A stretch of DNA of 64,000 bases from Promethearchaeota archaeon (GTDB taxonomy: Archaea > Asgardarchaeota > Hermodarchaeia > Hermodarchaeales > Hermodarchaeaceae): positions 128,001 to 192,000 of the forward strand of contig JBHLMG010000001.1 in assembly GCA_048938385.1 (NCBI GenBank), written 5' to 3'. The notes under the pieces are model-generated. The model searched no databases. It was not told the origin of the DNA and saw only the letters and a program-made list of their open reading frames with translations. Numbering within the stretch: position 1 is the stretch's first letter; the number at the start of each line of letters is the position of its first letter. Positions 1,760 through 63,854 of the stretch are shown piece by piece. The translations under genes and the position numbers were made by a program.

Positions 1760-2143
1760 TCATCGGTTGAGTTTTTTAGCGATTTTTTTTGCAGCACGCT
1801 CCATATTGATAAAGACTAGTCCTAGACCCGCAAGGGAAGCCGTGTTCGTGCTCACCATTAAAACGGAATCTGGACCTGCCGCCACCATGATAACGGCTCC
1901 TGTTTTCCCTTGAGCAAAAACCTGGTGTAATGCTCCTTTCCTTAAATCTGACGCCGCCCGTTCACCAATAGTAAGCAGTGCAGCGCTCATCGCAGCTAGA
2001 AGCGTCTCGTCGAATTCTTCCGGAAGATTCGCTGCAATAGGAAGCCCATCGACTCCAACTACAACAGCAGCCTCAATCTCGTCTACTGATTCTGTAAGAC
2101 TCTCCAGGATTTTCTCAATTTCAGGAGAACTCGGAATCATCAA
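1760..2143 (-). CDS. Roadblock/LC7 (MglB-like) protein
   Basis: AAVVVGVDGLPIAA, LAAMSAALLTIGERAA, LGLVF. Confidence 0.9.
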   Translation of the reverse strand: MMIPSSPEIEKILESLTESVDEIEAAVVVGVDGLPIAANLPEEFDETLLAAMSAALLTIGERAASDLRKGALHQVFAQGKTGAVIMVAAGPDSVLMVSTNTASLAGLGLVFINMERAAKKIAKKLNR

Positions 2144-2150
2144 GGTTGGT

Positions 2151-2738
2151 CTAACTCGCTGATGCTTTTGCAGATGTCTTAGGGTACAAATGGTACATCA
2201 AGATATCGCGAGTTACCTGTCGAAACGCGCGTTTAACATTTTCTCCTGTAATAGCACAGGTCGTAAAATTCGGAACATTCCCCAACCCCAACTTTGCCAA
2301 CATGATGGAATTATCCATAGCATTGGACAAATCCTGCTTGTTCAGCATAACAACCAAACTAACCGAATGCCCCAGCTCATCGCTTACAAAGGAACGGAGC
2401 TCAGACATACTTTCGATATTCGCCTCCATCTGATCTGGAGACGAGTCCGCCACGAAAATAATTCCATCTACCCCAGTTAGAATTACCTTTCGTTGTCCTC
2501 GATGTCTGCGTTGACCCGCTACAGTGTATACATCAAAGACTACTTGAGCTGTGGCTTGCATTGGAGTATAGTCAAAAAAAAGAGTCCGACCTGTATGATC
2601 TGCCACCGATGTAAATCCGCCTTTTTCAAGCCCTTCAACATTATCATAAATCCAGCGAAGTGCAGTCGTCTTTCCCGACAGTGATGGTCCCCAGAAGACG
2701 ATTTTGAAATGTATTCGACCTTTCGTGTCTTTCTTCAA
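2151..2738 (-). CDS. MglA-like small GTPase
   Basis: G1 GPSLSGKTT, RTLFFDY, TVAGQ, G4 NKQD, G5 CAITG. Confidence 0.9.
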   Translation of the reverse strand: MKKDTKGRIHFKIVFWGPSLSGKTTALRWIYDNVEGLEKGGFTSVADHTGRTLFFDYTPMQATAQVVFDVYTVAGQRRHRGQRKVILTGVDGIIFVADSSPDQMEANIESMSELRSFVSDELGHSVSLVVMLNKQDLSNAMDNSIMLAKLGLGNVPNFTTCAITGENVKRAFRQVTRDILMYHLYPKTSAKASAS

Positions 2739-2784: not shown

Positions 2785-3284
2785 TTAACCCTTCTCTAAT
2801 TCGCCGAGCGCTGCACGCAGCTCTTCTCGCTCTGCGTCAGTCTTACCTGCCGCTACTGCTGGCTTCTCGGCCATGAATTCATCTAATACTTTCGCAAGCT
2901 CCGCCGCGGCTTTCATCATCGTTAAACGAATCATCCCAATGTTTACTTCCTTATCGGTGATTACGCAGAGTACACCTTTTCCTGCACCAGCAGCGAAAAT
3001 CTTGCCATCACCAAACTCCGAAGTCACGATCGTCAGATCGCCTACATCCAAACTTTTTCCCTGCTCTTCGCTAGCGCAGAACACGGCACTTGCAATCGCG
3101 CCTATCCCGTCTACATTTCCGCGTTGTCTAGGTATTAGAGCAACTCAACGGGGTAGTACGAGAATTTTGAAACATGCGCGATAGTAAGACCGGTTCGGTC
3201 AACGAGGATAGTCTTCTTAATTCCTGGTTCGGATTTAATGACATCGGAGAGGATTTCATCAAATTGTCTCACGGTTATTGACAA
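2785..3284 (-). CDS. Roadblock/LC7 protein, 156 aa, split by a 29-nt BHB intron; join(3146..3284, 2785..3116)
   Basis: N-half (ILVDRTGLTIAHVSKFSYYPV) and C-half (VDGIGAIASAVFCASEEQG) lie in different frames; removing 3117-3145 gives 471 nt and ...YYPVDVDGIGA...; TTG start at 3284 inferred. Confidence 0.85.
3117..3145 (-). other. BHB-type intron in mRNA (roadblock gene)
   Basis: CCGU/GCGG 4-bp helix, bulges UG^A and AA^A, inner stem GUUG(C)UCUA/UAGACAAC, outer CUAC/GUAG. Confidence 0.85.
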
Positions 3285-3411: not shown

Positions 3412-3699
3412 TCATCCTCGTAGGACGATGAGGATATAATCTTCTTCAGGCGCAACCATGACTTCTCCCTGTGGAGTTGAGATTGTAAGAAAGTTCATTC
3501 CACCTTCGCCAAGTTCGTCGACTACGCGTTTAGCTTTGCCTACTAGTGATGTAACGAGGGCAGAAATAACCTCAGTTTTCTCTGCGTTTAGGTTGGAGCT
3601 GATTGGTAGGCCTTCCATGTTGGTAATGATAACGCCTCGCACTCCTTCGTGTGCACCGAGGCGTTTGAGTGAGTCTTTCAACGCTTTTCCGCCAATCAT
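3412..3699 (-). CDS. Roadblock/LC7 protein (dynein light chain roadblock-like)
   Basis: [32 protein letters not shown]. Confidence 0.9.
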
Positions 3700-40100: not shown

Positions 40101-41181
40101 AAGATACTTGAAACCGGCTTGCAATTGGGTATTCTTCTGCAACTCCCACTTGAAATCCTTGGGCTTTCAATCTGCTAGCTAGCTGATAAACCAAAGCAAT
40201 CGAGGTTTCAATTTGACCACGACTCTCATTAATCCAAAAGTCTTCCTTCGAAAGGTTAGGACCTTTCAGTAACATCGCAAGAGTCTCTGCCATAGACATC
40301 CCTGGAGGGGGTTTGATTATCCCTTTAACAATCAACCCTTCCTCAGTTATCTCTTCAAAGGATTTGGCTACTTTTTTCGCTCTCCGTCGGAAACGGTTAC
40401 GGAGTTGAGTTCCGTCTTTGAGTGTGAGTGGACAATAATGGAGGTTCAAAGAGGTTTCTGCTGCTGCCCACTCTAGCAATTCGAGGGCTTCCTCTTCACT
40501 TCCCTGTACGGAGGCAATAGAGTCCAAATCTAACTGTAAACCGCGTTTTTTTAGCTCATTTGCATTCAATGCGGTATATTCTAACTCATTGAGGTTCACA
40601 AAGTCAATCCCAATAGCTTCTAATTGGCGTAAAAAGTCCTTTAGCTGCTCCCGCATACCAGGAATGACTGGAATTTCGATGCCAAGTTTTGCCCTTCCTT
40701 TAGTGAGTGCTCGAAGCCGAGGAATGTCAGGTCCTAACGAAAAACGATGAAGCCTTAGCTCGTCAAGCCCGGCATTTAGTAATTTCTCAACAATATCAAG
40801 TGGAACCGGTTCTAGACCCGTATATAGGTGGATATGGAACTGCGAACCAAATTCTTCTTTAAAGAGACGGATGAACTGTAGAGTCCTCTCTACTTCATGG
40901 AGTGGCTCGCCACCTGTGATTCCCATACCTGTGGCTTCTATCATGTGGGCTTCTGCGATGGCTTGCTCAGGTTGCTCAACCACAACCTCATTAGCAAAGA
41001 TCGTGTCTTGGTTTCGACGCATTTCAGAAATAGGGCAGTAGAAACAAGATTTAGCACATTTCCCTGTGATGAACAAAACAAGCTTCGCTCCTTTGATGCA
41101 TTCCCTACATCCTTCAACCAAAATCCCTGTATGGGGGGAATTACCAAGCGATAACCGGATTTTTCGCACCACTTCTATCAC
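40087..41181 (-). CDS. Radical SAM protein (COG2108-like)
   Basis: GAKLVLFITGKCAKSCFYCP, ITGGEP, NLNELE. Confidence 0.85.
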   Translation of the reverse strand: MIEVVRKIRLSLGNSPHTGILVEGCRECIKGAKLVLFITGKCAKSCFYCPISEMRRNQDTIFANEVVVEQPEQAIAEAHMIEATGMGITGGEPLHEVERTLQFIRLFKEEFGSQFHIHLYTGLEPVPLDIVEKLLNAGLDELRLHRFSLGPDIPRLRALTKGRAKLGIEIPVIPGMREQLKDFLRQLEAIGIDFVNLNELEYTALNANELKKRGLQLDLDSIASVQGSEEEALELLEWAAAETSLNLHYCPLTLKDGTQLRNRFRRRAKKVAKSFEEITEEGLIVKGIIKPPPGMSMAETLAMLLKGPNLSKEDFWINESRGQIETSIALVYQLASRLKAQGFQVGVAEEYPIASRFQVSFNPL

Positions 41182-44541: not shown

Positions 44542-44887
44542 GGACGGGAGCCCCGACGGTTGACAACCCTTCCTGACGCCGTGCTCACAGCCAGGTCTCG
44601 GACCCGGATCTCAGAAGCATCTACAGTACAGGCTTACGCTGCTCCCTCCCGGGTCTCGCTGGGTTCACCTGTTTAAGGCGATTCAGCCCTTCCTACGAAA
44701 AGCCTACCGCCACCAGCGATCCTCTGAGGCGGATCGTCACAGCCACGAACAGCGAGTCGTACACCAGGTCAGAAAGCCTAACATCGGCATTCAGCCTGCC
44801 TTATAGAGCATTTGCAGAACAGGGGAGCCTTAGCCAGCCCGTAGCGGTGCTGCGGGGCTTCTAGCCCCCCGCCTAGGCTCACCGTCC
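44542..44887 (-). ncRNA. ffs: SRP (7S) RNA with a candidate 29-nt BHB intron
   Basis: Terminal helix GGACGG.GAGCC/GGCTCCCGTCC; helix 6 GUAG tetraloop; helix 8 GAGACCC-GGGA-GGGAGCAG; Alu-like CUAGGCGGGGGG...CCCCUGU. Confidence 0.88.
44831..44859 (-). other. BHB-type intron in SRP RNA Alu domain
   Basis: GCUA/UGGC helix, bulges GA^A and UA^A, inner stem with ACC loop. Confidence 0.75.
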
Positions 44888-51328: not shown

Positions 51329-52652
51329 TTATCCTAGCTCGTCAAATGTGTGAATTCGTAGTTTCACAGGTTTTTTGACGATATTGCCAATGCGTACACC
51401 AATGATTAGTCCGACTCCTCGCTCTTCTGCAATATCGATGAGTCGTTGGGTGACAACGCCATCTAACAGAAGCGTACTAGCCTTCTTTAGATTCTGAAAT
51501 TCGTTGGCAATTTCGCCAACATGCGTTTCTTTTATCGGTTTGAATTTCTCGTCGAGAATTACTGCCGTCATGGTTTGTTGAATTTTTCGGGCTTGCTCTA
51601 AGACTGAGTCAGGGATTCCTAAATCCCGAGGTTTTGGTACCGTGGAGGGCACTTTAGCTCGAGAGCTCCTTGCGGTGCTTCGCTTCGTGTCTCTTGTCGT
51701 GCTTCGGCGTACTGTTTTTACTTTCTGCGTTGTTGTGCGACTACGCCGTTTGGTTTTAACGGCTACCTTTGGTGGAGCACTTTTCCGTTTTATTTTCCCA
51801 AGGACTTCTTCAGCAGAAACTCTATTTCGAAGTGCTTTGGTCACTTCCTTATGAGTAAGCTCTTCAACTTCTCTTCCTGTCGGCGCTCTGGCCACATAAT
51901 CCACTTTTGTAACTTGAGCGAGTTCTTTTAGAATCAGATCTCCACCGCGGTCGCCATCAAGAAAAGCAGTAACAGTTTTACCTTTAGAAAGGTCGACGAT
52001 GAACTTCGGAATTGAGGTTCCTTCAACAGCTATTGCGTTCTTGACGCCAGATCGAAGTAGGGCTAATACATCTGCACGCCCTTCAACGATGATTATCGAA
52101 TCTGAGGATTCAACTTCCGGACCCGCTGGTAGTGCTTCTTTGCCTAGTTTGATGATATCAGCGGTTCGCGATTCTTTCTGAACGGTATCGGTCATTTCCT
52201 GTGAATCAGGTGAAACTTCACCTTCCCAATCGCGTAACAGGTGCACTGCTCGATCGATGATTCGGCGGCGTTTTGCTTCACGGACATCTTCGAGCTTTTC
52301 AAGAGTGATTTTTGCTGCACATGGACCTACACGGTCGACAGTCTCCATAGCAGCAGCGAGTATCGCAGTTTCAGTACGATCAAGGCTACAAGGAATAGTA
52401 ATTGTTCCTTGGGATTTACCGCCTTCAGATTTTAATTCAACTTTTATGCGACCGATGCGTCCCGATTGCTGTAGTTCTCTTAGGTCCAAATCTTCGCCGA
52501 TTGCCCCTTCACATCGGTGATATGAAGTGTAGGCCCTCTGTTTGACCAAAGAGTGCGCCTACAACATCGGGTTTTTCAACAACTCCATCTATTTCGATTT
52601 TTCCACGAATACAATACTTAGTAGTACCAGTGCTTTCTGCATTTGCTCCCAT
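51329..52652 (-). CDS. dnaG: Archaeal DnaG (exosome-associated TOPRIM protein), 431 aa, split by a 28-nt BHB intron; join(52529..52652, 51329..52500)
   Basis: Exon 1 [30 protein letters not shown]; exon 2 [18 protein letters not shown]; spliced length 1296 nt; VEGRADV, DGDRGG. Confidence 0.93.
52501..52528 (-). other. BHB-type intron in mRNA (dnaG)
   Basis: GCCU/GGGC helix, bulges AC^A and AA^U, 9-bp inner stem CUUCAUAUC/GAUGUGAAG with ACC loop. Confidence 0.9.
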
Positions 52653-62367: not shown

Positions 62368-62964
62368 TCAGCTTCCGGCTACAATATCTGCAGGCGCGAC
62401 TAGATAGTAGGTGGGTTCACCTTGACGGTCTAACACTGCAAGCATCAATTTCTTGCGATTGCGTTTTGCCTGTTTGGTGAAAACATCAAGTTCTGTTACT
62501 TTGAGAGGAGAACCTTCCGAAATAGTACAGACGAAATACTTAGCTGTTGCTTCATTAAGTTTGGCACCACGAGGATAAACCCGAAATAACAACCCTTTCC
62601 CATACCCAGTACGGACAACATAGCCCCTACTCCGTAAATCGCTGTACACAAGAAAGCGTGTCCATAGCCCCAATTGCTTCTCTGCGAGTCGTTCAAGGAG
62701 AACCGAAAATTCCAGCGTGTTCTTCTTTAAATCCTTCACCGAGATACGTTGCCGTCTCAGTAGCAATAATGCCTCTTCGGGTTCAAGGATAAGCGTTTGC
62801 GAGTCTTTCAAAGTTCCGTAATACCCGGCTTCAAACAATAGTTTCGCATGTTGCCCTGTGATTACCACGCGACCACGGGTTAGCTTTGCTTGAATGGGTT
62901 CATCGGGGAGTTGAGATCGTTCATCGCTGGGCGTATCATCCTCAATGGTTTTTTCCTTGGTCAT
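62368..62964 (-). CDS. endA: tRNA splicing endonuclease subunit, probably the structural (beta) type
   Basis: GYYG, EEALLLL, FLVYSDLRSRGYVV, FRVYPRG, RKKLMLAVLD; no His at the expected catalytic position. Confidence 0.85.
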   Translation of the reverse strand: MTKEKTIEDDTPSDERSQLPDEPIQAKLTRGRVVITGQHAKLLFEAGYYGTLKDSQTLILEPEEALLLLRRQRISVKDLKKNTLEFSVLLERLAEKQLGLWTRFLVYSDLRSRGYVVRTGYGKGLLFRVYPRGAKLNEATAKYFVCTISEGSPLKVTELDVFTKQAKRNRKKLMLAVLDRQGEPTYYLVAPADIVAGS

Positions 62965-63030
62965 CCTTGAACACCATCTCAAGCGAAAAGAGGCGAAGCT
63001 ATATAACCTCTTCCCGTCACCCCCAATTTA

Positions 63031-63562: not shown

Positions 63563-63695
63563 CCCGGCGTAGCTCAACCTGGTAGAGCGTCTGGCTGTAG
63601 GTTAACACCGCACCCTGAGCCATCTTGGCAATGATTCGGTGCCAACCAACGCAGATACCAGATGGTTCCTGGTTCAAATCCGGGCGCCGGGACCA
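63563..63695 (+). tRNA. tRNA-Tyr(GTA) with 56-nt intron at 37/38 (63601-63656)
   Basis: C1-G72, CUGU/GCAG helix; mature 77 nt. Confidence 0.92.
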
Positions 63696-63746: not shown

Positions 63747-63854
63747 GCCCGTTTAGTGTAGCCAGGTCTATCATCTGGGACTGTCAATGGTCTATACTCG
63801 ATATAGGCCAATGGATCTCCTAGGACTCGGGTTCAAATCCCGGAACGGGCGCCA
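63747..63854 (+). tRNA. tRNA-Asp(GTC) with 30-nt intron at 37/38 (63787-63816)
   Basis: CUGU/AUGG helix, CA^A and AU^C bulges. Confidence 0.92.

What the first reader, a model, noticed from the sequence alone, without database searches (positions are those of the whole stretch)
3117..3145. 29-nt BHB intron in a roadblock/LC7 gene of the MglA-like GTPase operon
Minus strand reads CUAC-C-CCGU-UG^A-GUUGCUCUAAUACCUAGACAAC-GCGG-AA^A-U-GUAG. The insert holds an in-frame UAA and shifts the frame. Cutting at the two canonical bulge positions gives CCC GUU G|AU GUA GAC (P-V-D-V-D) and one uninterrupted 156-aa roadblock ORF. Structure and frame restoration are independent and agree. Inference: splicing could gate a GAP/adaptor component of a eukaryote-like signalling module.
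Basis: partly seen in the sequence, partly recalled or inferred. Interest (0 to 1): 0.9.

Follow-up and report, generated by a model that had tools for sequence, protein, structure and literature searches.

The report
tRNA-type intron in Asgard roadblock gene
A 29-base insert shaped like a tRNA intron breaks a highly conserved roadblock (MglB/LAMTOR-like) gene in one Hermodarchaeota (Asgard) species only. Cutting it out at the predicted sites restores the exact protein of its relatives, so the mRNA is very probably spliced by the tRNA-splicing enzyme, which the papers searched confirm in archaea only for cbf5.

Summary
Window 3117-3145 (minus strand) is a 29-nt insert with an in-frame UAA that splits a roadblock/LC7 gene into two frames.

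- **Orthologues:** fourteen from the same genus and family lack exactly these 29 nt. All 80 Asgard loci examined are gap-free across the junction.
- **Product:** removing the insert gives a 156-aa protein identical to the orthologues' protein.
- **Structure:** the minimum-energy fold is a bulge-helix-bulge whose canonical cuts coincide with the insert borders. Random inserts achieve this in 0.03-0.1% of trials.
- **Not an artefact:** contigs from four independent sediment and mangrove studies carry the insert.
- **Still under selection:** a strain variant differs at 7 coding sites, all synonymous and each in its own exon's frame (P about 3e-4). This argues against a pseudogene.
- **Machinery:** the genome encodes two EndA paralogues and RtcB.
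- **Genus context:** frame-breaking inserts of the same geometry in dnaG, cbf5 and an EF-2 paralogue are conserved across the genus, with compensatory changes.

Best reading: a recently gained endonuclease-type pre-mRNA intron (confidence 0.87). No RNA data exist, so splicing itself is inferred. The "gating" idea is untested. Unchecked notes from this scan report similar mRNA introns in other Asgard genomes. Among the papers searched, only crenarchaeal cbf5 is confirmed.

The parts
3146..3284 (-). Exon 1 of the roadblock/MglB-like gene (TTG start 3284-3282; 46 codons plus the first base, G, of the split Asp codon)
   Evidence: Matches Robl_LC7 profile positions 3-32. The translation is identical to residues 1-46 of the orthologues.
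3117..3145 (-). 29-nt BHB intron (A-GUUG-CUCUAAUACCUAGA-CAAC-GCGG-AA) with an in-frame UAA at 3137-3135
   Evidence: Absent from 14 genus and family orthologues with exact borders. Present in contigs of 4 studies. Unique in the genome.
3108..3160 (-). Full hBHBh' motif. Outer helix CGU.CUAC (3160-3153) pairs with GUAG-ACG (3114-3108). Central helix CCGU (3151-3148) pairs with GCGG (3122-3119). Bulge UG^A is 3147-3145 and bulge AA^A is 3118-3116. Intron stem GUUG (3144-3141) pairs with CAAC (3126-3123).
   Evidence: MFE equals centroid structure. Exact-border randomisation test.
2785..3116 (-). Exon 2 (last two bases, AU, of the Asp codon; 109 codons; stop at 2787-2785)
   Evidence: Matches Robl_LC7 40-91 and MAPKK1_Int 50-115. 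Identical to orthologue residues 48-156. The 6 strain differences here are all synonymous.
2151..2738 (-). Small GTPase (195 aa) directly downstream, partner gene of the cluster
   Evidence: Pfam Arf 5.9e-15, Ras, Gtr1_RagA.
1760..2143 (-). Roadblock/LC7 gene (127 aa) downstream of the GTPase
   Evidence: Robl_LC7 1.1e-15.
3412..3699 (-). Roadblock/LC7 gene (95 aa) upstream
   Evidence: Robl_LC7 2.8e-19.
62368..62982 (-). One of two EndA (tRNA-splicing endonuclease) paralogues, the presumed cutting enzyme
   Evidence: PF01974 67 bits. ORF of 204 aa. Best PDB match 1a79 tRNA endonuclease, 2e-21.

Best explanation
The 29 nt at 3117-3145 are an archaeal bulge-helix-bulge (endonuclease-type) intron in the pre-mRNA of a 156-aa roadblock/MglB-like protein of a Hermodarchaeota (Asgard) archaeon. 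The intron was gained recently in this species lineage. The transcript folds so that exon 1 (CCGU) pairs with the 3' end of the intron (GCGG) to form the 4-bp central helix, flanked by the bulges UG^A and AA^A. The two-paralogue EndA cuts after the second base of each bulge. RtcB joins ...CCC GUU G to AU GUA GAC..., recreating the Asp47 codon and the full reading frame. The excised 29-mer is probably circularised. Shown: the insert, its exact borders, the fold, the restored protein, its presence in DNA from several studies, continued purifying selection, and the presence of the enzymes. Inferred: the cutting and joining of the RNA itself.
For: (1) Fourteen orthologues in the same genus and family lack exactly these 29 nt, with the gap at G|A. 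All 80 Asgard loci are gap-free across residues 38-56. A pattern allowing any 12-60-nt insert at this site matched only this genome among 400 Asgard genomes. (2) The spliced product is 156/156 identical to the orthologues' protein although the DNA is only 74-79% identical. The intact orthologue matches Robl_LC7 3-91/91 in one stretch. (3) The MFE fold is the BHB. Cuts at the canonical bulge positions coincide with the indel borders, which happens with probability 3e-4 to 1e-3 for random inserts. (4) Contigs from four studies bridge the insert without gaps. The roughly 98%-identical strain variant has 7 coding differences, all synonymous third-position changes read in each exon's own frame, 6 of them downstream of the frame break. 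The probability of this under neutrality is 2.6e-4. (5) The genome has two EndA paralogues and RtcB. (6) The same genus keeps frame-breaking inserts of the same geometry (H 4 bp, bulge NN^A, intron stem, H', bulge AA^N). These are in dnaG (13 of 13 species, 98.7% of cells paired, one compensatory pair), in cbf5 and in an EF-2 paralogue (central helix GGGG/CCCC in some species, GAGG/CCTC in others). mRNA splicing of this type therefore evidently operates in this lineage.
Against: There is no RNA evidence, because no RNA run holds the locus. The motif is slightly relaxed (a C.U mismatch next to the 3' bulge), and the fold's z-score alone is modest (-1.75). The intron occurs in one species only, so the element itself offers no covariation. 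The synonymous-only pattern rests on 7 sites and would also fit a protein made as two pieces.
Confidence: 0.87

Rival explanations
1. A recent 29-nt insertion has killed the gene, which is now a young pseudogene. The BHB-like fold is coincidence.
For: The insert is confined to one species. It breaks the frame and carries a stop.
Against: All 7 substitutions that separate insert-bearing strains are synonymous in the exon frames. A BHB at the exact borders is expected in no more than 0.1% of random inserts. The protein is invariant across the genus, so its loss would be surprising. Conserved introns of the same geometry exist in the genus.
Confidence: 0.05
2. The gene works as two separately translated polypeptides, a 49-aa N-piece and a 99-aa C-piece from GTG 3084, that assemble into one roadblock fold without splicing.
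For: Purifying selection on both halves is compatible with this reading. A GTG lies in frame at 3084.
Against: The first possible start of the C-piece (3084) lies 10 codons after the junction. It would drop VDGIGAIASA, which is invariant in Asgard. Two of the synonymous strain changes (3085, 3103) lie in that stretch, consistent with it being translated. This reading does not explain the BHB at the exact borders.
Confidence: 0.04
3. Translational recoding: ribosomes shift frame or hop across the insert, giving a protein with a small insertion or deletion at residue 47.
For: Frame 1 stays open for 3 more codons after the 5' border. The exon-2 frame is open from the UGA at the 5' border (3146-3144) onward, leaving a short window in which a -1 shift could occur.
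Against: No slippery heptamer, and no matching take-off and landing codons, are visible in CCC GUU GAG UUG CUC UAA (read directly). A shifted product would carry about 10 foreign residues in a segment that is gap-free in 80 of 80 homologues. The BHB explains the borders exactly.
Confidence: 0.02
4. Assembly or binning artefact: the insert does not exist in the organism's DNA.
For: The genome is a 51-contig MAG.
Against: Contigs from four separate studies (sediment and mangrove) bridge 3117-3145 with zero gaps. Three of them come from strain variants that differ at nearby sites.
Confidence: 0.01

Closest known systems
cbf5 pre-mRNA BHB introns of Crenarchaeota (Aeropyrum, Sulfolobus, Desulfurococcales; Watanabe 2002, Yoshinari 2006, Yokobori 2009 = PMC2738675)
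   Same: A short BHB intron sits inside a protein-coding sequence and is presumably removed by a hetero-oligomeric EndA. Gain and loss are lineage-specific, and gene callers split the gene.
   Different: Different gene (a roadblock/MglB-like signalling protein, not an RNA-modification enzyme) and different phylum (Asgard, Hermodarchaeota). It is species-specific, so very young. Splicing is not yet shown experimentally. PMC2738675 states that archaeal pre-mRNA splicing was confirmed for no gene other than cbf5.
[quoted passage not shown]
   Same: Same motif (4-bp helix and two 3-nt bulges, half built from exon sequence), same size range and same enzymes. Gains are repeated and mostly on terminal branches, at sites whose exon sequence can pair.
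   Different: The host here is an mRNA, so excision must also restore a reading frame. That preprint does not mention mRNA or protein-gene introns.
Conserved mRNA inserts of the same genus: dnaG (window 52501-52528), cbf5 (C4:12651-12691), EF-2 paralogue (contig C23, about 40.35-40.38 kb)
   Same: Same geometry: H(4 bp) - bulge NN^A - intron stem - H' - bulge AA^N. Each intron starts with A and ends with AA, is 28-41 nt long and breaks the frame.
   Different: Those three are old: they are shared by 13 or more species and show compensatory changes. The roadblock intron is confined to one species.
Ire1/HAC1-XBP1 unconventional mRNA splicing in eukaryotes
   Same: A protein endonuclease cuts twice in stem-loops of an mRNA, RtcB-type ligation follows, and the frame changes.
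   Different: Different nuclease (Ire1, not EndA/TSEN) and stress-regulated. There is no evidence of regulation here.

Membership tests
Archaeal BHB (splicing-endonuclease) intron | [quoted passage not shown] | tested here: met
   The MFE and centroid fold gives CCGU/GCGG flanked by UGA and AAA, an intron stem GUUG/CAAC and an outer helix CUAC/GUAG. It is relaxed by one C.U mismatch beside the 3' bulge. The genus-conserved dnaG intron has an even weaker outer helix.
Archaeal BHB (splicing-endonuclease) intron | Cuts after the 2nd bulge nucleotide yield the functional mature product | tested here: met
   The cuts coincide with the indel borders seen in 14 orthologues. The product is 156/156 identical to the orthologues. 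Probability by chance is 3e-4 to 1e-3.
Archaeal BHB (splicing-endonuclease) intron | Host encodes EndA able to cut relaxed or non-canonical sites, and the RtcB ligase | tested here: met
   Two single-unit EndA paralogues (204 and 186 aa), consistent with an (alpha-beta)2 enzyme, and RtcB of 487 aa. Subunit roles and the specificity loop were not examined.
Archaeal BHB (splicing-endonuclease) intron | Excision and exon ligation observed in RNA | not testable with these tools
   No RNA run is listed for this locus. The laid runs are DNA contigs.
Roadblock/LC7 (Robl_LC7, PF03259) protein | Single contiguous match to the domain above Pfam's cut-off | tested here: met
   An orthologue identical to the spliced product matches 3-91/91 at 40.9 bits (cut-off 23), and MAPKK1_Int at 29.6 bits (cut-off 25). 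The two exons alone match 3-32 and 40-91.
MglB GTPase-activating protein (NCBIfam NF052242 equivalog) | Score above the equivalog cut-off | tested here: not met
   29 bits against a cut-off of 200, E 9e-7 over 129 residues. The protein is MglB-like in fold and in gene neighbourhood, but it is not a member of that equivalog. GAP activity was not tested.
Pseudogene | Relaxed selection after the disrupting event | tested here: not met
   7 of 7 differences between insert-bearing strains are synonymous, P = 2.6e-4.

The most novel reading that the evidence does not exclude
Hermodarchaeota carry an active process that plants endonuclease-type introns into protein-coding genes at sites whose exon sequence can already form half a BHB. 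The roadblock intron would be a very young product of that process. Its splicing efficiency could set the level of an MglB/LAMTOR-like regulator of the neighbouring small GTPase, which would be a regulated mRNA-splicing switch in a close archaeal relative of eukaryotes.
Probability: 0.1. Interest if true: 0.85.

Novelty: new member of a known kind. Interest (0 to 1): 0.62.

Why it matters
In the papers searched, endonuclease-dependent splicing of an archaeal coding sequence is confirmed only for crenarchaeal cbf5. Here the same mechanism is very probably needed to make a eukaryote-signature roadblock protein in an Asgard archaeon. Together with the conserved dnaG, cbf5 and EF-2-paralogue inserts, it indicates that one Asgard genus carries both old and newly gained protein-gene introns. 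That gives a dated, species-level example of intron gain in an mRNA, with the intron-less state preserved in all relatives. It is useful for studying how such introns arrive. It also matters for annotation, because gene callers will split or drop these genes.

Tried and rejected
- **RNA evidence.** Two run searches listed no RNA holder, so expression and splicing could not be examined.
- **JGI metagenome contigs.** I scanned once for any 15-45-nt insert at this site and once for the intron core. Both gave 0 hits.
- **Exact-product look-ups.** The split ORFs of 99, 49 and 106 aa are not on record.
- **Genome-wide census.** I combined a relaxed BHB motif with an ORF-fusion test, with and without a codon-usage score. 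It gave 5,620 and 153 hits, no more than controls with shifted cut sites, because ordinary neighbouring gene pairs dominate the hits. It is not usable as a census. Only its structural hit rate is informative: 216,575 hits in about 5.3e8 position-by-length trials, roughly 4e-4.
- **Origin of the insert.** BLAST of the insert against the genome found no second copy or tRNA-intron relative, only chance matches of 16 nt or fewer, so the origin is unknown.
- **Aragorn tRNA count.** It called 31 tRNA genes, 18 with introns. This is rough and includes implausible calls.
- **Frameshift or hopping signals.** I looked for them by eye and found none.

Full report
**The observation.** On the minus strand the region reads CGUA-CUAC-C-CCGU-UGA-GUUG-CUCUAAUACCUAGA-CAAC-GCGG-AAA-U-GUAG-ACG (3160-3108). 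The upstream reading frame starts at TTG 3284. It runs into UAA at 3137-3135, inside the 29 nt at 3117-3145. The downstream frame is open from the UGA at the 5' border (3146-3144) to the stop at 2785-2787. Deleting 3117-3145 joins ...CCC GUU G to AU GUA GAC... and gives one 156-codon ORF. Exon 1 alone matches Robl_LC7 profile positions 3-32, and exon 2 alone matches positions 40-91. RNAfold's minimum-energy and centroid structure of 3105-3160 is the proposed motif. It has a 4-bp central helix CCGU/GCGG, bulges UGA and AAA, an intron stem GUUG/CAAC extended by UCUA/UAGA, and an outer helix CUAC/GUAG plus CGU/ACG, with one C.U mismatch next to the 3' bulge. The energy is -15 kcal/mol, z = -1.75, and 13 of 200 shuffles fold as well.

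**Comparison with relatives.** The window is contig C23:128001-192000 of a 2.48-Mb, 51-contig MAG. Record titles of orthologous loci place the genus in Candidatus Hermodarchaeota, an Asgard lineage. Blastn against 40 relatives found the gene in 12 congeners and in the sister genus. In every full-length alignment the subject was exactly 29 nt shorter. MAFFT puts the gap at ...CC(N)GT(N)G|A(T/C)GT..., the borders predicted from the bulges. One equivalent placement is shifted by 1 nt, because the intron starts with A and the base after it is also A. The congeners' proteins are 156 aa. They are identical to one another apart from the start-codon residue and three substitutions near the C-terminus, although the DNA is only 74-79% identical. 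The spliced product of this genome is identical to them. An intact orthologue matches Robl_LC7 3-91/91 in a single stretch (40.9 bits) and MAPKK1_Int/LAMTOR3 (29.6 bits), both above cut-off. It matches MglB only weakly, at 29 bits against a cut-off of 200. Across 80 Asgard loci (Hermod-, Heimdall-, Hod-, Loki-, Hel-, Odin-, Frey-, Jord-, Borr- and others) a single tblastn HSP crosses residues 38-56 with no gap or stop, in forms such as VSKFSYYPVDVDGIGAIAS. A pattern that allows any 12-60-nt insert at this site matched only this genome among 400 Asgard genomes; the pattern covers only the AAA-TTY codon variants. The intron-less state is therefore ancestral and the insert is a gain in this species lineage.

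**Is the structure more than chance?** I kept the real exon flanks and replaced the insert. A BHB (relaxed definition, either orientation) whose cuts fall on any equivalent placement of the indel borders occurred in 86 of 300,000 shuffles of the insert. It occurred in 304 of 300,000 random genomic 29-mers. The genome-wide hit rate of the same motif is about 4e-4 per position and length. Structure and comparative borders are independent lines of evidence, and they agree.

**Is it real DNA, and is the gene still in use?** Logan contigs from four different studies (three sediment, one mangrove) bridge 3117-3145 with no gap. One is identical to the window and is possibly the source sample. The other three belong to a roughly 98%-identical strain. 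That strain differs at 8 positions in 448 nt. One lies upstream of the start codon. The other 7 are all third-position synonymous changes when each exon is read in its own frame. Six of them lie downstream of the frame break, including two (3085, 3103) between the junction and the first possible internal start codon. Given 6 transitions and 1 transversion, the neutral probability of 7 out of 7 synonymous changes is 2.6e-4. No difference falls within 3104-3188, though with so few sites that is not significant. Other contigs in the same samples come from intron-less relatives. One aligns up to 3116 and stops there, and where these contigs leave the reference they continue directly with exon-1-like sequence (loose ends). 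An assembly artefact is excluded, and a decaying pseudogene is unlikely.

**Machinery and context.** The genome has two single-unit EndA paralogues, of 204 aa (in this window at 62368-62982) and 186 aa. [quoted passage not shown] It also has RtcB. Following leads from earlier notes of this scan, I tested three other split genes.

- **dnaG (window 52501-52528).** The 28-nt insert is present in all 13 species of the genus that were aligned, without length change. 98.7% of cells are paired in the proposed structure, against 38-53% when partners are slid. There is one fully compensatory pair, several one-sided changes, and a variable loop.
- **cbf5 (C4:12651-12691).** The 41-nt insert is kept in 14 species with lengths of about 39-43 nt and many compensatory changes. 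It splices GIINLD|KPPGPTSH.
- **EF-2 paralogue.** The 31-nt insert is kept across the genus and in one genome of the sister genus. Its central helix switches between GGGG/CCCC and GAGG/CCTC. It splices EEQRRG|ITIKSANISL.

All four share one geometry: H(4 bp) - bulge NN^A - intron stem - H' - bulge AA^N. Endonuclease-type mRNA introns are thus an established, selected feature of this genus. The roadblock intron is a new, species-specific addition to that set.

**Mechanism.** The most likely path is as follows. The gene is transcribed, the BHB folds, EndA cuts after UG and after AA, and RtcB ligates the exons. Asp47 (G|AU) and the frame are restored, and the 156-aa roadblock protein is translated. 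In this cluster (roadblock - roadblock - Arf/Rag-like GTPase - roadblock) that protein probably acts as an MglB/LAMTOR-like partner of the GTPase. The folding, cutting and joining steps are inferred. Rivals are a young pseudogene (0.05), two separately translated pieces (0.04), recoding (0.02) and an artefact (0.01).

**Literature and novelty.** Yokobori et al. 2009 (PMC2738675) state that archaeal pre-mRNA splicing was confirmed for no gene other than cbf5. A 2026 preprint on heavily interrupted Asgard tRNA genes reports repeated, mostly terminal-branch gains at BHB-competent sites and two-paralogue EndA in most genomes, but it does not mention mRNA. Two further full-text searches found no report of BHB introns in Asgard protein genes. 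Earlier unchecked notes of this scan describe similar mRNA introns in other Asgard genomes, two of them with RNA-derived contigs that lack the intron. I did not test those notes. I class this finding as a new member of a known kind. The regulatory "gating" idea remains pure speculation.

Noticed in passing
window 52501-52528 (-): A 28-nt frame-breaking BHB-type insert in dnaG (splices ...TEGL|LGEDLD...). It is conserved in all 13 species of the genus that were aligned, with 98.7% of cells paired and one compensatory pair. Its outer helix is nearly absent (HBh' type).
   Followed up: yes
G000 contig C4:12651-12691 (+) = L120:302-342: A 41-nt BHB-type insert in cbf5 between GIINLD and KPPGPTSH. 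It is kept in 14 species with length variation and many compensatory changes.
   Followed up: partly
G000 contig C23, about 40352-40382 (-), within L121: A 31-nt BHB-type insert in an EF-2 paralogue between EEQRRG and ITIKSANISL. It is conserved across the genus and in one sister-genus genome. The central helix covaries between GGGG/CCCC and GAGG/CCTC.
   Followed up: partly
window about 44828-44860 (-), inside SRP RNA 44545-44884: The Rfam alignment of the archaeal SRP RNA shows a 33-nt insertion where the model has 2 nt, in the 5' hairpin. This is a possible BHB intron in SRP RNA.
   Followed up: partly
window 63563-63692 (+) and 63747-63851 (+): Two tRNA genes of 130 and 105 nt, far longer than 75 nt, so each carries one or more introns. 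Aragorn calls introns in 18 of the 31 tRNA genes it finds in the genome, and it clearly misses many genes.
   Followed up: no
window 2785-3284 (-) and loci L002-L013: The 156-aa roadblock protein is almost invariant in amino-acid sequence across 13 congeneric species whose DNA differs by 21-26%. It is 60-75% identical across Asgard classes, an unusually strong constraint for a small regulatory protein.
   Followed up: partly
window 62368-62982 (-): One of the two EndA paralogues lies in the same window, about 600 bases from the intron-bearing tRNA genes at 63563 and 63747.
   Followed up: partly
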